Of a stretch of 4,093 nt of DNA, positions 1-4,093 are shown piece by piece. The first letter of the stretch is position 1; every line of letters starts with the position of its first letter. The DNA is taken from the IMG/VR virus record IMGVR_UViG_2541047427_000008. One strand, written 5' to 3'. Source of the stretch: a virus (taxonomy: Duplodnaviria > Heunggongvirae > Uroviricota > Caudoviricetes). The notes beneath the pieces were generated by a model. It was not told where the DNA came from, ran no database searches, and saw nothing but the letters and a program-made list of their open reading frames with translations. Position numbers and translations under genes: made by a program.

Positions 1-468
1 GGCGCGATGACTGAACAGCAAATCCGGCAGGTCTGCCGTCAGTGCATGGACCGCTGCCGGGCGGGTGAAACGTGGCCTCCGGACCTGGCTGAGTTTGTGG
101 CGTTGATTTCGGAGAGCGGGGCAAATCCATTTGGCCTGACGGTGGATGCCGTGATGGAGGAGTACCGTCGCTGGAGGAATGAATCCTGGCGGTACGACGG
201 GAGTGATAAATACCCGTGGCCACAGCCGGTGCTGTACCACATTTGCCTCGAGATGCGTGACAGAGGGATTGAGCGGCAGATGACGGAAGGTGAGTTAAAA
301 CGACTTGCAGAACGGCAACTGACGAAATGGGCAAAGCAAGTTGGTAACGGGATGAGTATTCCCCCGATCCGGAGACAACTCGCATCGCCGAAGTGCCCGC
401 AAGGGCCAACGCCAATTGAATTACTGAAACAGGAATACGAGCGCCGGAAGGCGGCTGGTTTTGTTTGA
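1..468 (+). CDS. Lambda P-family replication protein (helicase loader), C-terminal part; 5' end lies outside the window
   Basis: Frame 1 is open from base 1 to the TGA at 466-468, so the ATG at 7 is probably internal. The translation shows blocks recalled from lambda P's C-terminal half (PPDLAEFVALI, SDKYPWPQPVLYHIC, MTEGELKRLAERQL). Position just upstream of nin-like genes fits. Similarity is from memory, not a search. Confidence 0.7.
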   Translation, partial: GAMTEQQIRQVCRQCMDRCRAGETWPPDLAEFVALISESGANPFGLTVDAVMEEYRRWRNESWRYDGSDKYPWPQPVLYHICLEMRDRGIERQMTEGELKRLAERQLTKWAKQVGNGMSIPPIRRQLASPKCPQGPTPIELLKQEYERRKAAGFV

Positions 469-501
469 ATCTGAGAAACGATTTTGTCGGAGGAAATTTT
501 A

Positions 502-1218
502 ATGGAAACCGTATCTGACGCACTGAAAGCACTGAAAAGAGCCTCTTCACATGTGGTGGCAGCTCGCCTTGGAATTAGTCGTGAAGAGGCTGTCAACGAA
601 CTGTGGAAACTGAAACGCCGTGGAGAAGCGGATAACAAGGGGGCGATATGGTGGCTGACTCAGGCTGGTGAAAGTGAACCGGTGTCACCGGTACCGAAAG
701 TGACGGCGCAAATGCTGACAGAGGCGATTGAACAACATGGCCCACAAACGGCGGATGAACTGGCATTGATGTTCGGAATTACCTCCCGCCGGGCGAATTC
801 ATCGCTGGCAATGGCAATCAGCAAAGGGTGTCTGATTCGCGTGAATCAGGATGGTAAATTTCGTTACTGCATACCGGGCGTTGATTTACCGGCAGAGCCG
901 AAAGCAGCATCCGTAGCTGAAACGGAGGGTAAAGCCCTTCCTCAGCCAGCTGGTGTTGCGTTACCAGTCCAGGAAACGGCTGCACAGGAAGAAATTAAAA
1001 CAGAAGCGGTGGAGGACATTGTGAAGTTGCAGCAATCGTTCACTGAAGCGAAAGCAGATGACCTGATTCTACCATCGCTGCATGTGGCTAACCGCGAGCT
1101 GCGCCGGGCGAAAAGTAATGTTCAGAAGTGGGAGCGAGTCTGTGCTGCGCTACGGGAACTGAACAAACACAGGGATATTCTCCGGGATATTACCGCCACC
1201 AGAGAGCAGCAGCGGTGA
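502..1218 (+). CDS. Phage protein, DUF1627-like, with two winged-helix-like segments and a coiled-coil C-terminus
   Basis: ATG at 502 preceded by GGAGG at 488-492 (9-nt spacing); the track's start at 484 is a TTG and less likely. 239 codons ending at TGA 1216-1218. HTH-like segments [19 protein letters not shown] and [27 protein letters not shown]1627 label is recollection and unverified. Confidence 0.75.
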
Positions 1219-1532
1219 GTGGCTGGAAGAAGTGGCGCTGGGCTGAAATCCTGATACTCCGGCAGTGTGCGGGAACGATGAGAGTCGAAAGCATCGGTTA
1301 TCTGATTGGCCGTAGTGAGTCAGCCGTCAGGACGAAAGCGCGGGAACTGGGTATCAGCATGATGTTACGGGGTGATTATCACCAGTCAGCCAAATGTTCA
1401 CAGCGTGATATTGAGCTGGCGTGGCAACTGCATCAGCGTGGTGTACCCCGACGGGAAATTGCCGAAAAGTTTGGGATGAAGTTGGGCGCAGTGAATAACT
1501 ACGTTTATTTCGACAGGAGGGTTCAGGAGTGA
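1215..1532 (+). CDS. Small protein with two helix-turn-helix motifs (putative DNA-binding regulator)
   Basis: In-frame GTG at 1215 overlaps the upstream stop (GTGA at 1215-1218), suggesting translational coupling; alternative ATG start at 1278. Motifs [21 protein letters not shown] and [18 protein letters not shown] resemble sigma-70 region 4 / LuxR-type HTH. The part of the track ORF upstream of 1215 overlaps the previous gene and is probably not translated. Confidence 0.65.
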
Positions 1533-1831
1533 GGGTGAGGGTTTATATCGCCGGTCCGATGACGGGATATGAAAATTTTAACCGCGAGGCATTTCACAAA
1601 ACGGAAGAGGTGCTGAAACGGGAAGGGCATACCGTTTTAAACCCGGCAGTACTTCCGGACGGGCTGACTCAGCCACACTACATGGATATTTGCATGGCAA
1701 TGCTCCGTTGCGTGGATGCGGTTTACATGCTGAAAGGCTGGCAGCAGTCGGCAGGTGCAGGGGCTGAGCTGGCACTGGAGGAGAAACCGGGCCATGCGGT
1801 GATTTTTCAGGAGGTGGGCAGTGAATATTGA
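1529..1831 (+). CDS. DUF4406 / nucleoside 2-deoxyribosyltransferase-like protein
   Basis: GTG at 1529 overlaps the upstream TGA (1530-1532); alternative GTG at 1535 with GGAG at 1526-1529. N-terminal VYIAGPMTGYENFNREAFHKTEEVLKREGHTVLNPA matches the family hallmark as I recall it. 100 aa. Confidence 0.8.
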   Translation: MRVRVYIAGPMTGYENFNREAFHKTEEVLKREGHTVLNPAVLPDGLTQPHYMDICMAMLRCVDAVYMLKGWQQSAGAGAELALEEKPGHAVIFQEVGSEY

Positions 1832-2138
1832 CCCGGCGATAACGATTGATATGGCCCTGAACGCCGGCCTGGCACTTCTTGGTTATTTCTACATTATGTT
1901 CTGCAGCGGACGATGGCTGTCACTGTTGTTCATGAAAAAATGGAATAAACGCCGTAAGCAGGAGCAACGCCAGAAGGCAATGGATGCATTTTTCGAAGCC
2001 TTCGGAATTGACGGCATGGAACCAGGGGATCCAGCTCGCGCAATCAGCAGAGGGGGTGTAGTAATCCTTGTATATCGGAGTGAAGAGAAAAATGACGATC
2101 ACAAAACAACGTGTAGAAGAAATCATATCCCGCATTGA
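1821..2138 (+). CDS. Small membrane protein: one N-terminal transmembrane helix followed by a basic segment
   Basis: GTG at 1821 with GGAGG at 1809-1813 (7-nt spacing), overlapping the upstream gene end by 11 nt. Hydrophobic ITIDMALNAGLALLGYFYIMFCSGRWLSLLF followed by KKWNKRRKQEQRQK. The 3' part overlaps the next gene, so true extent is uncertain. Confidence 0.5.
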   Translation: MNIDPAITIDMALNAGLALLGYFYIMFCSGRWLSLLFMKKWNKRRKQEQRQKAMDAFFEAFGIDGMEPGDPARAISRGGVVILVYRSEEKNDDHKTTCRRNHIPH

Positions 2139-2409
2139 AATGTATGGACATGGTGCAGGGTATATCGCAGACGAGGTTAATGATCTGGCTATACTGGCGC
2201 TGAATTTATCAAATATCGCGAACCTGAAGCGATACGAGCTTGATATGGGAGGTTGCGACTCGTGCGGTCAGGATTGTGGCGCTGATATGACTGAAGATCC
2301 TGATGGTGATTATGTCCTGTTTGATGACGTGGTTAAGTTGTTTGAATTTGATACAACCACTCAAAAGTTAGAAATCCCGGCAAAGGAGGCAGCCAGTGGG
2401 CAAGATTGA
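2092..2409 (+). CDS. Hypothetical strongly acidic protein with a C-x2-C-x3-C motif
   Basis: ATG at 2092 (MTITKQRVEE...); the track start at 2068 is a TTG, and an ATG at 2140 is an alternative. About 22 Asp/Glu versus about 8 Lys/Arg in 105 aa by my hand count. Motif CDSCGQDCG. Ends at TGA 2407-2409. No family recognised. Confidence 0.6.
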   Translation: MTITKQRVEEIISRIEMYGHGAGYIADEVNDLAILALNLSNIANLKRYELDMGGCDSCGQDCGADMTEDPDGDYVLFDDVVKLFEFDTTTQKLEIPAKEAASGQD

Positions 2410-2833
2410 CTATCAGGCACTGCGTGAGGCAGCACAAAACTATCAATCGACGCTGGCGTGGTATCAGGCTACCCCGGACAGCCCAAATGCTGAACGGGAT
2501 TGTGATGCGGCTCTTGCTGCGTTTAAGCGTCACATCCGTCATCGGGAAGCGGATATTATCGCTGATTTGCTGGATGGACTGGAAGAAGCAAAATCACAAC
2601 TCAACGAGCAGCGTGAGTATTACGAAGGCGTTATCTCTGATGGGAGCAAGCGTATTGCTGAACTGGAAGCGCGGGAAGTTCAATTACCGACTCGCTACGA
2701 CCTTCGATATGGACACCCGATAAATGCAGATGAGCGACATGTCATGATACCTAAAGAAAATGGCAGTTGGCTTTACCTGATTGACCTAGAACACGCATTA
2801 CGCGTCGCTGGCATTCGCATCAAAGGAGAGTGA
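2396..2833 (+). CDS. Hypothetical protein with a central coiled-coil-like segment
   Basis: GTG at 2396 with AAGGAGG at 2383-2389 (6-nt spacing), overlapping the upstream gene by 14 nt. 145 aa with heptad-like IADLLDGLEEAKSQLNEQREYYEGV...RIAELEAREVQL. Faint resemblance to Ead/Ea22-like prophage proteins, not assertable. Confidence 0.65.
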   Translation: MGKIDYQALREAAQNYQSTLAWYQATPDSPNAERDCDAALAAFKRHIRHREADIIADLLDGLEEAKSQLNEQREYYEGVISDGSKRIAELEAREVQLPTRYDLRYGHPINADERHVMIPKENGSWLYLIDLEHALRVAGIRIKGE

Positions 2834-2834
2834 G

Positions 2835-3026
2835 ATGAACGGACAAATATCAATTGTTCGACCAGGAGCATGTGACGATCGCGAAATACGAATGATTATT
2901 CGTCTGGCGATGGGGAAAACAATAACTGCTCTCATTACTCCAGAAAATCTCGCATTAGCATTAACAGGAAAGTCAGACATGCCAGTAGAGCTAAAGCTGC
3001 GAAATGTTGAGATTAAGGTGAAATAG
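2835..3026 (+). CDS. Hypothetical small protein (63 aa)
   Basis: ATG at 2835 one base after the upstream stop (TGAGATG), with AAGGAGAG at 2822-2829. Ends at TAG 3024-3026. The overlapping - strand ORF 2798-3070 has no start context and antisense-like composition. Confidence 0.55.
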   Translation: MNGQISIVRPGACDDREIRMIIRLAMGKTITALITPENLALALTGKSDMPVELKLRNVEIKVK

Positions 3027-3028
3027 CT

Positions 3029-3586
3029 ATGACCACTATTACCAAAGATCGACTGCTGACAATCCAGCATTGGCGCGAAACATACGGACCGGGTAGCAAC
3101 GTTGTGCTTCCAGCAGAAGAAGCGGAAGAGCTGGCACGGATTGCGCTGGCATCACTGGCAGCAGTATCGGATGAACGAGCAGCCTATGAATTATTTATGG
3201 AGAAGCGTTTCGGAGAATCTGTAGATCGCCGCAGAGCAAAAAATGGCGATAGAGAATACATGGCATGGGATATGGCGCTTGGCTGGATTATCTGGTGTCA
3301 CCGCGCCGCCATGCTTCAGGCTGGAAACTTTCGGGAAAATAAGGGTTCGTCAACCAATAATTTTCGGATAATCTCGGAAACGTCAACCAACTCTCCGGCA
3401 ATCCCTGATGAGGTGTTGTCCGCAATCCTGAAGGTCGCCAGGCTTCGTGCAGATTTCGATGCTTCTGAAGTGGACAGGCGAGGTATCGGTAGTTGTCTGG
3501 ATGAGGCCGAGCAAGAACTTATCGTTACCATTAACGAATACGCCAGTCAGATCGCAGTAGAAGCGACACAGGGGGAGAACCAATGA
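3029..3586 (+). CDS. Hypothetical protein (185 aa)
   Basis: ATG at 3029 two bases after the upstream TAG, with AAGGTGA at 3013-3019 as a possible ribosome-binding site. Contains an internal imperfect tandem repeat. Ends at TGA 3584-3586. No family recognised. Confidence 0.65.
   Translation: MTTITKDRLLTIQHWRETYGPGSNVVLPAEEAEELARIALASLAAVSDERAAYELFMEKRFGESVDRRRAKNGDREYMAWDMALGWIIWCHRAAMLQAGNFRENKGSSTNNFRIISETSTNSPAIPDEVLSAILKVARLRADFDASEVDRRGIGSCLDEAEQELIVTINEYASQIAVEATQGENQ
3326..3391 (+). repeat. Imperfect tandem direct repeat of 2 x 33 bp inside the 3029-3586 CDS
   Basis: Units 3326-3358 and 3359-3391 match at about 22 of 33 positions by hand alignment, each ending in an identical CGTCAACCAA (3348-3357 and 3381-3390). 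Confidence 0.5.
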
Positions 3587-3660
3587 GCCGGCCAGATGCA
3601 TTTGCAGGCGTTGCTATAGCTATTGCTTTTCTAGTATATGTTATTTGTCGGTGGGGGTAA
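3583..3660 (+). CDS. Putative 25-aa hydrophobic mini-protein (MSRPDAFAGVAIAIAFLVYVICRWG)
   Basis: ATG at 3583 overlaps the upstream stop (ATGA at 3583-3586), preceded by GGGGGAG at about 3572-3578. Single hydrophobic stretch; stop TAA 3658-3660. Not in the ORF track, presumably below its length cutoff. Short ORFs arise by chance, so this is tentative. Confidence 0.35.
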   Translation: MSRPDAFAGVAIAIAFLVYVICRWG

Positions 3661-3695
3661 AAACGTTCGCCGGGATTCACACCAAGGGAGGGAAT

Positions 3696-3800
3696 ATGTC
3701 GGATGATATTTCACTGGTAATGGAAGGCGCTCTGGCTGTTATTGCTGTTGTGGGTGTTTACTGCCTGGTTGTGTTTTTGATGGAGCGCCTGGGGAACTGA
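3696..3800 (+). CDS. Putative 34-aa single-pass membrane peptide (MSDDISLVMEGALAVIAVVGVYCLVVFLMERLGN)
   Basis: ATG at 3696 preceded by AAGGGAGGG at 3684-3692 (about 4-nt spacing). Acidic N-terminus then a roughly 20-residue hydrophobic helix; stop TGA 3798-3800. Not in the ORF track. Confidence 0.45.
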   Translation: MSDDISLVMEGALAVIAVVGVYCLVVFLMERLGN

Positions 3801-3810
3801 ATTCATTCCG

Positions 3811-3826
3811 TATGGGAATTCCCATA
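3811..3826. repeat. 16-bp perfect palindrome TATGGGAATTCCCATA, possible dimeric protein-binding site
   Basis: Exactly self-complementary, centred on GAATTC. Sits between the 34-aa peptide stop (3800) and the predicted hok promoter -35 (3841). No downstream U-run, so not an intrinsic terminator. Confidence 0.6.
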
Positions 3827-3840
3827 TCGGGCAAAACGGT

Positions 3841-3868
3841 TTGCTGTAAAGCGAGAGTTAAGTAGAAT
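3841..3868 (+). promoter_or_regulatory. Predicted sigma-70 promoter for the hok-like mRNA
   Basis: -35 TTGCTG (3841-3846), 16-bp spacer, -10 TAGAAT (3863-3868). Predicted start near 3875, just before GCTTGAGGCT (3879-3888), which matches the 5' end of plasmid R1 hok mRNA as I recall it. Confidence 0.5.
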
Positions 3869-3874
3869 TGCTGC

Positions 3875-4043
3875 GGGTGCTTGAGGCTGTCTGCCTCGGG
3901 CATGCCACCGTAAGGCAGACAGAGAAAAGCCCCAGTTAACATTACGCGTCCTGCAAGACGCCTAACATTAATCTGAGGCCAATTTCATGCTAGACACATG
4001 TAGGTTAGCCTCTTACGCGCCGAAAGGCAAGGAGAAGCAGGCT
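3875..4043 (+). other. Structured 5' leader of the hok-like mRNA, including a 10-bp stem and a mok-like upstream start
   Basis: Inverted repeat CTGTCTGCCT (3887-3896) / AGGCAGACAG (3913-3922) with a 16-nt loop. Downstream blocks AGCCTCTTACGCGCC and GCAAGGAGAAGCAGGCTATGAAG resemble hok-family leaders. ATG at 3987 with GAGG at 3975-3978 is in frame with the hok ATG. Confidence 0.55.
3930..3995 (-). ncRNA. sok: Predicted Sok-like antisense RNA (antitoxin of a type I toxin-antitoxin pair)
   Basis: By analogy with R1 hok/sok. Minus-strand promoter-like elements: -35 TTGCCT (complement of 4025-4030), 17-bp spacer, -10 TAACCT (complement of 4002-4007). Transcript would cover the mok-like start region. 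A short hairpin GCGTC-N6-GACGC is present, but ends are guessed and no clean terminator is seen. Confidence 0.35.
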
Positions 4044-4093
4044 ATGAAGCAGCAAAAGGCGATGTTAATCGCCCTGATCGTCATCTGTATTAC
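4044..4093 (+). CDS. hokD: Hok/Gef-family type I toxin, HokD/RelF-like; first 16 codons only, truncated by window end
   Basis: ATG at 4044 preceded by AAGGAGAAG at 4029-4037. Translation MKQQKAMLIALIVICI matches the HokD/RelF N-terminus as I recall it (MKQQKAMLIALIVICLTVIV...). Confidence 0.85.
   Translation, partial: MKQQKAMLIALIVICI

What the first reader, a model, noticed from the sequence alone, without database searches (positions are those of the whole stretch)
3975..4046. The mok-like upstream start is in frame with hok, unlike the overlapping out-of-frame mok of R1
An ATG at 3987 with a GAGG ribosome-binding site 8 nt upstream reads with no stop codon straight into the hok ATG at 4044, 57 nt downstream. 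Translation from 3987 would therefore give an N-terminally extended Hok (19 extra residues: MLDTCRLASYAPKGKEKQA) rather than a separate Mok frame. In the R1 paradigm as I recall it, mok is in a different frame and only couples translation. This 1-nt register difference could change how toxin translation is regulated, or it could be a sequencing or indel artefact.
Basis: partly seen in the sequence, partly recalled or inferred. Interest (0 to 1): 0.45.

Follow-up and report, generated by a model that had tools for sequence, protein, structure and literature searches.

The report
Ordinary in-frame mok leader of hok
The upstream start codon is the normal "mok" leader of a prophage hok/sok toxin-antitoxin gene, and its being in frame with the toxin is the commonest known arrangement (as in E. 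coli K-12 mokC/hokC), not an anomaly or a sequencing error.

Summary
GAGG lies at 3975-3978 and an ATG at 3987. The frame is open for 57 nt into the hok ATG at 4044, which adds the 19 residues MLDTCRLASYAPKGKEKQA.

The window is a lambdoid prophage of E. coli O157:H7 carrying an intact hokD-type hok/sok locus (Rfam sok/hok-leader model 116.9 bits). The same 57-nt in-frame layout is annotated in K-12 as mokC/hokC, which share a stop codon, and mokA/hokA is also in frame. It is also present in srnB (F-type) and pndA (IncI).

I surveyed 179 hok loci, giving 91 unique leaders. In 47 the leader ORF reads in frame into hok, 25 carry the R1-like +1 long overlap, and 6 are in frame +2 with a stop at AUGA. 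All three registers occur among near-identical loci, produced by 1-nt indels.

The exact 70-aa ORF occurs on 874 public contigs, so it is not an artefact. Published R1 mutagenesis shows that only translation of the first 19 mok codons matters, not the frame beyond them.

Verdict: already known and ordinary.

The parts
3841..3868 (+). Inferred hok mRNA promoter: -35 TTGCTG (3841-3846), 16-nt spacer, -10 TAGAAT (3863-3868).
   Evidence: Read by eye. It sits 7 nt upstream of the conserved 5' end GGGTGCTTGAGG. The consensus scanner found no promoter at its threshold, so this is an inference from position only.
3875..3886 (+). 5' end of the hok mRNA, the tac element GGGUGCUUGAGG.
   Evidence: This is the start of the Rfam RF01794 match and is nearly invariant in alignment A2. 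In the full-length transcript taken from L001 it pairs with the 3' CCUCAACGCACCC (fbi), which lies outside the window (z = -7.5).
3875..4049 (+). hok mRNA leader (Rfam family 'sok', RF01794; the model matches the leader-sense strand).
   Evidence: 116.9 bits, gathering score 59, E = 3.8e-27, full model 1-157.
3946..3961 (+). Extra small hairpin gcgtcc-tgca-agacgc, inserted in the upstream stem relative to the Rfam consensus.
   Evidence: It appears as an insertion in the alignment. In A2 it is shared only with prophage hokD-type loci, with compensatory changes.
3975..3978 (+). mok Shine-Dalgarno sequence GAGG.
   Evidence: It is conserved in 116 of 117 viral loci. In every one of the 80 unique hairpins it forms the 5' side of the GAGGC/GCCUC clamp.
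3975..4012 (+). mok translation-initiation and Sok-target hairpin. The clamp is GAGGC...GCCUC, the mok AUG lies at the top of the 5' arm, and the loop is CUAGACA.
   Evidence: all 80 unique homologous hairpins fold to the same shape, with many compensatory stem changes. One search gives the consensus pairs 145-149 / 182-186.
3987..4043 (+). mok leader ORF: 19 codons (MLDTCRLASYAPKGKEKQA), in frame with hok, reading on to the hok stop as a 70-aa ORF.
   Evidence: It has the same 57-nt in-frame layout as the annotated K-12 mokC.
3922..3997 (-). Inferred Sok-like antisense RNA, starting around 3995-3997 and ending in the U-run after a long hairpin.
   Evidence: The K-12 sokC annotation spans -50 to +9 relative to the mokC ATG, and sokB is similar. 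I mapped this onto the window by homology. The predicted RNA folds at -34.5 kcal/mol, z = -5.26. The ends are inferred, not measured.
4002..4030 (-). Inferred Sok promoter on the minus strand: -35 TTGCCT (4030-4025), 17-nt spacer, -10 TAACCT (4007-4002).
   Evidence: Read by eye, and consistent with the position of the sokC start. It is below the scanner threshold, so this is an inference.
4029..4034 (+). hok Shine-Dalgarno sequence AAGGAG, 9 nt before the hok ATG.
   Evidence: CAAGGAGAA is invariant in A2, but it was part of the search pattern.
4044..4093 (+). hok (hokD-type) toxin ORF, cut by the window end. The full ORF is 51 aa in L001 4345-4500.
   Evidence: RefSeq annotates it as hokD. 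It is 98 % identical to K-12 HokD. Pfam PF01848 scores 81.9 bits.

Best explanation

The locus most likely works as worked out for R1.
1. The full-length mRNA is locked shut by 5'-3' (tac/fbi) pairing.
2. After 3' trimming, the mok SD/AUG hairpin becomes accessible.
3. A Sok-like antisense RNA made from the minus strand binds this region and blocks mok translation.
4. Without Sok, ribosomes start at 3987 and translate the 19 leader codons across the hok SD (4029-4034). This is what allows Hok to be made.

The register of the leader relative to hok does not matter for this mechanism. Here it happens to be frame 0, which is the commonest natural arrangement. A ribosome starting at 3987 would therefore produce a 70-aa N-terminally extended Hok, alongside any 51-aa Hok from initiation at 4044.

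Shown here: the anatomy, the homology, the RNA-level conservation and the lability of the frame. Inferred from R1: Sok control, the coupling, and the production and toxicity of the two protein forms.
For: Family identity:
- Rfam RF01794 scores 116.9 bits against a gathering score of 59.
- RefSeq annotates the gene as hokD, and Pfam HOK_GEF scores 81.9 bits.
- tac/fbi end-pairing appears in the MFE fold of the full transcript, z = -7.5, and a terminator is present.

The in-frame layout is standard:
- K-12 mokC 16751-16960 and hokC 16751-16903 share a stop; mokA and hokA also share a stop.
- srnB and pndA both have an in-frame upstream ATG at 57 nt.
- Survey of 179 loci and 91 unique leaders: 47 frame 0 open into hok, 25 frame +1 long overlap, 6 frame +2 ending at AUGA.
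- Both registers occur within the same Hok subfamilies.
- The mok-hok distance changes through 1-nt indels at three or more sites.

The constraint is on RNA, not on the peptide. All 80 unique GAGG..CCTC hairpins keep the same fold, with compensatory changes, while leader codons 2-6 vary freely.

Not an artefact: the exact 70-aa ORF is on 874 contigs, and the exact 75-nt leader is in 4 IMG/VR contigs.

Experimental basis from R1 (PMC9841398):
- mok start-codon mutants, and stop codons upstream of the hok ATG, abolish toxicity.
- Stop codons in mok after the hok ATG have no effect.
Against: - No experiment on this locus or on any hokD-type locus was available to me. Sok transcription, the mRNA ends and start-site usage are all inferred.
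- The consensus promoter scan found neither the hok promoter nor the Sok promoter.
- My survey pattern required GCCTCTTAC...CAAGGAGAA followed by an ATG. It therefore cannot test whether in-frame loci ever dispense with the internal hok start. The counts are also not phylogenetically independent.
- I found no open-access text that states the in-frame arrangement explicitly. That it is known rests on database annotation and on my recollection of Poulsen et al. 1991 (orf69/gef) and Pedersen & Gerdes 1999.
Confidence: 0.88

Rival explanations
1. The 70-aa ORF from 3987 is the real and only toxin gene. The ATG at 4044 is just an internal methionine, so there is no leader/coupling arrangement in in-frame loci.
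For: The ORF is continuous and has a GAGG SD at 8 nt. NCBI names the exact 70-aa protein 'type I toxin-antitoxin system Hok family toxin', and it is on 874 contigs. In frame 0, nothing in the sequence forces a second initiation.
Against: AAGGAG followed 9 nt later by ATG is kept at 4029-4046. In near-identical relatives with +1 or +2 register (for example L023/L025, or the L129 type in 12 contigs), Hok can only be made from that internal ATG. The Pfam HOK_GEF domain starts at residue 25 of the 70-aa form. The leader residues vary freely. RefSeq and K-12 annotate the short form as the toxin.
Confidence: 0.07
2. One reading: the 1-nt register difference from R1 marks a functionally distinct mode of regulating toxin translation.
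For: In frame 0, leader translation necessarily yields an extended Hok rather than an unrelated Mok polypeptide. The product, if not the control logic, therefore differs from R1.
Against: Registers 0, +1 and +2 interchange among loci with nearly identical leaders and toxins. In R1, whatever lies beyond the hok start in the mok frame is dispensable (PMC9841398). All the regulatory RNA elements are conserved irrespective of frame.
Confidence: 0.04
3. Sequencing or assembly indel artefact in 3985-4045.
For: None beyond the 1-nt difference from R1.
Against: The region is 100 % identical to a finished O157:H7 chromosome. The whole window is 99.4 % identical in many finished genomes. The exact 70-aa product is on 874 contigs. 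The identical leader is in 4 IMG/VR contigs, and 95 of 117 prophage loci have the 57-nt distance.
Confidence: 0.01

Closest known systems
E. coli K-12 mokC/hokC (gef) with sokC
   Same: The SD is GAGGC and the mok ATG is 8 nt downstream. The 57-nt in-frame offset and the shared stop codon are the same, giving a 69-70 aa extended ORF. Leader motifs are conserved (GCCUCUUAC, CAAGGAGAAG). Hok is 84 % identical.
   Different: hokC is chromosomal, next to IS186, rather than in a prophage. It lacks the extra hairpin at 3946-3961. Leader codons 2-12 differ.
E. coli K-12 hokD (relF) in the Qin prophage
   Same: The toxin is 98 % identical, and the context is a lambdoid prophage.
   Different: In K-12 the leader, mok and sok are replaced by relBE sequence. 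The window carries the intact ancestral-type regulatory region.
hok/sok (parB) of plasmid R1 and flm of F
   Same: The mRNA architecture is the same (tac, SDmok hairpin, GCCUCUUAC, hok SD). The leader is 19 codons before the hok ATG. The Rfam family is the same.
   Different: In R1 the mok ATG is 58 nt upstream, in the +1 frame, giving a 70-aa unrelated polypeptide that stops 4 nt before the hok stop. Hok is only 37 % identical.
srnB (F) and pndA (IncI/R483-type) plasmid loci
   Same: The upstream ATG is 57 nt before the toxin ATG and in frame, giving 68- and 69-aa extended ORFs.
   Different: These are more divergent toxins and leaders, and they are plasmid-borne.
E. coli K-12 mokB/hokB
   Same: Same family and the same leader motifs.
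   Different: The offset is 58 nt, in the +1 frame, and mokB is 55 aa and ends inside hokB.

Membership tests
[quoted passage not shown] | A Hok/Gef toxin ORF (about 50 aa, Pfam PF01848). | tested here: met
   PF01848 scores 81.9 bits against a cutoff of 22, tested on the ORF completed from the 100 % identical locus L001. The toxin is 98 % identical to K-12 HokD. Only codons 1-16 lie inside the window.
[quoted passage not shown] | A conserved structured hok mRNA leader. | tested here: met
   Rfam RF01794 scores 116.9 bits against a gathering score of 59, with the full-length model matched.
[quoted passage not shown] | A leader ORF (mok) with its own SD, starting about 57-58 nt upstream of hok and reading across the hok SD. 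| tested here: met
   GAGG at 3975, ATG at 3987, open through 4044. The ATG aligns positionally with the annotated mok, mokB and mokC starts.
[quoted passage not shown] | Long-range 5'-3' (tac/fbi) pairing in the full-length mRNA. | tested here: met
   In the MFE fold of L001:4176-4596, GGGUGCUUGAGG pairs with CCUCAACGCACCC; z = -7.5. The 3' partner lies outside the window.
[quoted passage not shown] | A cis-encoded Sok antisense RNA covering the mok translation-initiation region. | tested here: inconclusive
   The position is inferred from the K-12 sokC and sokB annotation. The predicted RNA is well folded, z = -5.26. The promoter hexamers TTGCCT/TAACCT are weak and were not called by the scanner. 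No transcript data were available.
[quoted passage not shown] | Toxicity of Hok and its repression by Sok. | not testable with these tools
   This needs expression and killing assays.
R1-type mok (out-of-frame overlapping ORF) | mok in the +1 frame relative to hok (58-nt offset), with a separate stop codon. | tested here: not met
   The window offset is 57 nt, frame 0, with the same stop as hok. R1-type loci have 58 nt.
mokC/gef-type mok (in-frame leader) | mok ATG 57 nt upstream, in frame 0, sharing the hok stop codon. | tested here: met
   The window (via L001) gives a 70-aa ORF ending at the hok stop. K-12 mokC/hokC have the same geometry.

The most novel reading that the evidence does not exclude
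In in-frame loci such as this one, every ribosome that translates the leader must make a 70-aa N-terminally extended Hok. This longer isoform could be a physiologically relevant toxin species, perhaps the main one, with its own insertion or toxicity properties. All three registers coexist naturally among near-identical prophage loci (57, 58 and 56 nt). That offers a ready-made natural experiment on whether the coupling is truly frame-independent.
Probability: 0.35. Interest if true: 0.3.

Novelty: already known. Interest (0 to 1): 0.08.

Why it matters
It matters little as a discovery. The in-frame mok leader is annotated in the E. coli reference genome and is the commonest arrangement in the hok family.

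There are two practical points:
- The R1 textbook picture of an out-of-frame mok should not be taken as the family norm.
- Annotation pipelines disagree on calling the 51-aa or the 70-aa ORF as 'Hok'.

The frame lability documented here agrees with published R1 mutagenesis, which shows that only translation of the first 19 leader codons is needed.

Tried and rejected
- The search for related loci with the 7-protein Hok alignment failed because no stretch was conserved enough. I used a DNA motif scan instead.
- The motif scan of genome contigs also returned chance matches in Pseudomonas, Bacteroidales and other taxa. A Hok HMM filter removed these, leaving 66 of 103 candidates.
- Literature searches for an explicit statement of the frame relationship ('in frame', orf69/gef, mokC) found nothing useful in the held library. 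Thisted et al. 1994 (PMC395038) is not held.
- The promoter scanner found no sigma-70 site for hok or Sok, so the promoter assignments remain inferences.
- RNAalifold on the MAFFT alignment recovered only the tac hairpin and the invariant GAGGC/GCCUC clamp. Covariation in the mok hairpin was seen only by folding each unique hairpin separately.
- NCBIfam has no Mok model, and the Hok models score below their cutoffs for this protein.
- The artefact hypothesis was rejected.

Full report
**Observation.** GAGG lies at 3975-3978, followed by an 8-nt spacer and an ATG at 3987. The frame stays open to the hok ATG at 4044, exactly 57 nt downstream. This encodes MLDTCRLASYAPKGKEKQA followed by MKQQKAMLIALIVICI..., and the window ends at 4093 inside hok. 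The pattern GAGG-N8-ATG is not unusual by itself: the window holds 2 matches against 0.76 expected. Whether the feature is real therefore has to be decided by homology.

**What the locus is.** Positions 3700-4093 are 100 % identical to a lambdoid prophage in E. coli O157:H7 strain LSU61, where the gene is annotated hokD. The whole window matches O157:H7 prophages at 99.4 %. It carries a lambda-P-like replication gene and nin-region DUFs upstream. Rfam RF01794, the 'sok' family whose model matches the hok leader-sense strand, matches 3875-4049 over its full length at 116.9 bits against a gathering score of 59.

I completed the gene from the identical locus L001:
- The toxin is 51 aa, 98 % identical to K-12 HokD and 84 % to HokC. 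Pfam HOK_GEF scores 81.9 bits.
- The full transcript folds with its 5' GGGUGCUUGAGG paired to a 3' CCUCAACGCACCC, the tac/fbi end-pairing, at z = -7.5.
- A terminator follows.

This is an intact hok/sok-type module. The K-12 hokD copy, by contrast, has had its leader replaced by relBE.

**The R1 comparison.** In a plasmid locus whose Hok is identical to the R1 Hok sequence as I recalled it, mok is annotated at 443-655 and hok runs 501-659. That is a 58-nt offset in the +1 frame, giving a 70-aa unrelated polypeptide.

**Is the in-frame layout unusual? It is not.**
- In K-12, mokC (16751-16960) and hokC (16751-16903) share a stop codon and have the same 57-nt offset.
- The K-12 mokA pseudogene shares its stop with hokA.
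- mokB/hokB is the R1-like case, at 58 nt.
- The two other classical plasmid systems, srnB (F-type) and pndA (IncI), both have an in-frame ATG 57 nt upstream, giving 68- and 69-aa ORFs.

**Survey of the family.** I scanned for the shared leader motif GCCTCTTAC-N8-16-CAAGGAGAA in one genome per species and in IMG/VR viral contigs. I kept the matches that were followed by an ORF positive for a Hok HMM. I then measured the distance from the SD-associated start to the hok ATG.

| Class | 62 genomic loci | 117 viral loci | 91 unique leaders (pooled) |
|---|---|---|---|
| Frame 0, open into hok | 22 | 95 | 47 |
| Frame +1, long overlap | 22 | 9 | 25 |
| Frame +2 (56 or 59 nt), 19-20 codon leader stopping at a TGA that overlaps the hok ATG | 5 | 12 | 6 |
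| No SD or start codon | 7 | 1 | 7 |
| Other | 6 | 0 | 6 |

Different registers occur within the same Hok subfamilies. Among HokD-like MKQQKA toxins there are 28 frame 0, 4 frame +1 and 1 frame +2. Among R1-like MKLPRN toxins there are 4 frame 0 and 3 frame +1.

Alignment A2 shows that the mok ATG is positionally conserved. The mok-hok distance changes through 1-nt indels at three or more sites: TAGCC versus GCC, GG-C versus GGTC in a small hairpin, and between the hok SD and the ATG.

The counts are descriptive only. The loci are related to one another, and the motif was required for a locus to be included.

**The constraint is on RNA, not peptide.** All 80 unique GAGG...CCTC segments fold into the same hairpin. 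Each has a GAGGC/GCCUC clamp, the mok AUG at the top of the 5' arm and a 7-9 nt loop, with abundant compensatory stem changes. Examples are TTTCATG/CATGTAGG, ATCTATG/CGTAGAT, CTTTATG/CATAAAGG and TCTGATG/CATCAGA. Leader codons 2-6 vary freely (MLDTC, MLYTR, MSHKC, MNGKS, MLVTY). The conserved 'LASY.PKGKEK' stretch simply spells the invariant RNA motifs GCCUCUUAC and CAAGGAGAAG. The second motif also carries, on the other strand, the likely Sok -35 hexamer.

**Not an artefact.** The exact 70-aa product is present on 874 public contigs, where NCBI names it 'type I toxin-antitoxin system Hok family toxin'. The exact 75-nt leader occurs in 4 IMG/VR contigs.

**Mechanism.** The steps are taken from R1 and are inferred for this locus.
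1. The full-length mRNA is closed by tac/fbi pairing.
2. 3' trimming opens the mok SD hairpin.
3. Sok binds there and blocks mok translation.
4. Without Sok, translation of mok across the hok SD allows Hok synthesis.

Le Rhun et al. (PMC9841398) report the relevant R1 results. Mutations of the mok start codon abolish toxicity, and so do stop codons upstream of the hok ATG. Stop codons in mok after the hok ATG have no effect. [quoted passage not shown] This makes the register beyond codon 19 irrelevant to control, and it matches the natural frame lability found here.

In this window, the Sok-like RNA is placed by homology to the annotated sokC, which spans -50 to +9 relative to the mokC ATG. 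That puts it at about 3997-3922 on the minus strand, with hexamers TTGCCT (4030-4025) and TAACCT (4007-4002). It folds well, at z = -5.26. The promoter is weak and was not called by the scanner.

The one real consequence of frame 0 is that leader translation yields a 70-aa extended Hok rather than an unrelated Mok. I could not establish whether that isoform is made in quantity or is toxic. It remains the only modestly open question.

**Verdict.** The contrast with R1 is correct. The feature is an ordinary, already annotated arrangement.

Noticed in passing
window 3696-3800 (+): A 34-aa strongly hydrophobic ORF (MSDDISLVMEGALAVIAVVGVYCLVVFLMERLGN) with a GGGAGGG SD lies just upstream of the hok promoter. 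RefSeq calls it only 'hypothetical protein' (WP_001278460.1), and it has no NCBIfam hit. It could be another small membrane protein.
   Followed up: partly
window 3811-3826: A perfect 16-bp palindrome, TATGGGAATTCCCATA, lies between the small hydrophobic ORF and the inferred hok promoter. Its function is unknown; it could be an operator or a recombination site.
   Followed up: no
window 3946-3961: An extra small hairpin (gcgtcc-tgca-agacgc) is inserted in the upstream leader stem. It is absent from the Rfam consensus, R1, hokC and hokB. Prophage hokD-type loci share it, with compensatory changes. It also lengthens the predicted Sok terminator hairpin.
   Followed up: partly
L129 4487-4661 (and 11 other IMG/VR contigs); L016, L021, L089, L101: A third register class has the leader ATG 56 or 59 nt upstream. 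The 19-20 codon leader ORF ends at a TGA that overlaps the hok ATG (AUGA), a classic termination-reinitiation geometry, with an otherwise intact Hok.
   Followed up: partly
L027, L071, L103, L121 (Serratia): These loci keep the GAGGC...GCCUC hairpin and the Hok ORF (MMPNKR...; cut by the locus end in L027). They have no ATG, GTG or TTG at the mok position. Either leader translation starts at a non-canonical codon or these loci work without mok.
   Followed up: no
L001 4288-4500 / public protein cluster P0001: Annotation is inconsistent. RefSeq annotates the 51-aa hokD in LSU61. The exact 70-aa in-frame ORF is deposited on 874 contigs as 'Hok family toxin'.
   Followed up: yes
L001 1-4000 versus window 1-3699: The genome with the 100 % match to the hok region (LSU61) differs upstream: it has YdaT/HTH/ATP-binding genes rather than the window's lambda-P-like gene and DUF4406/DUF4752 genes. 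Other O157:H7 prophages match the whole window at 99.4 %. This is typical lambdoid mosaicism with hok as a shared module.
   Followed up: partly
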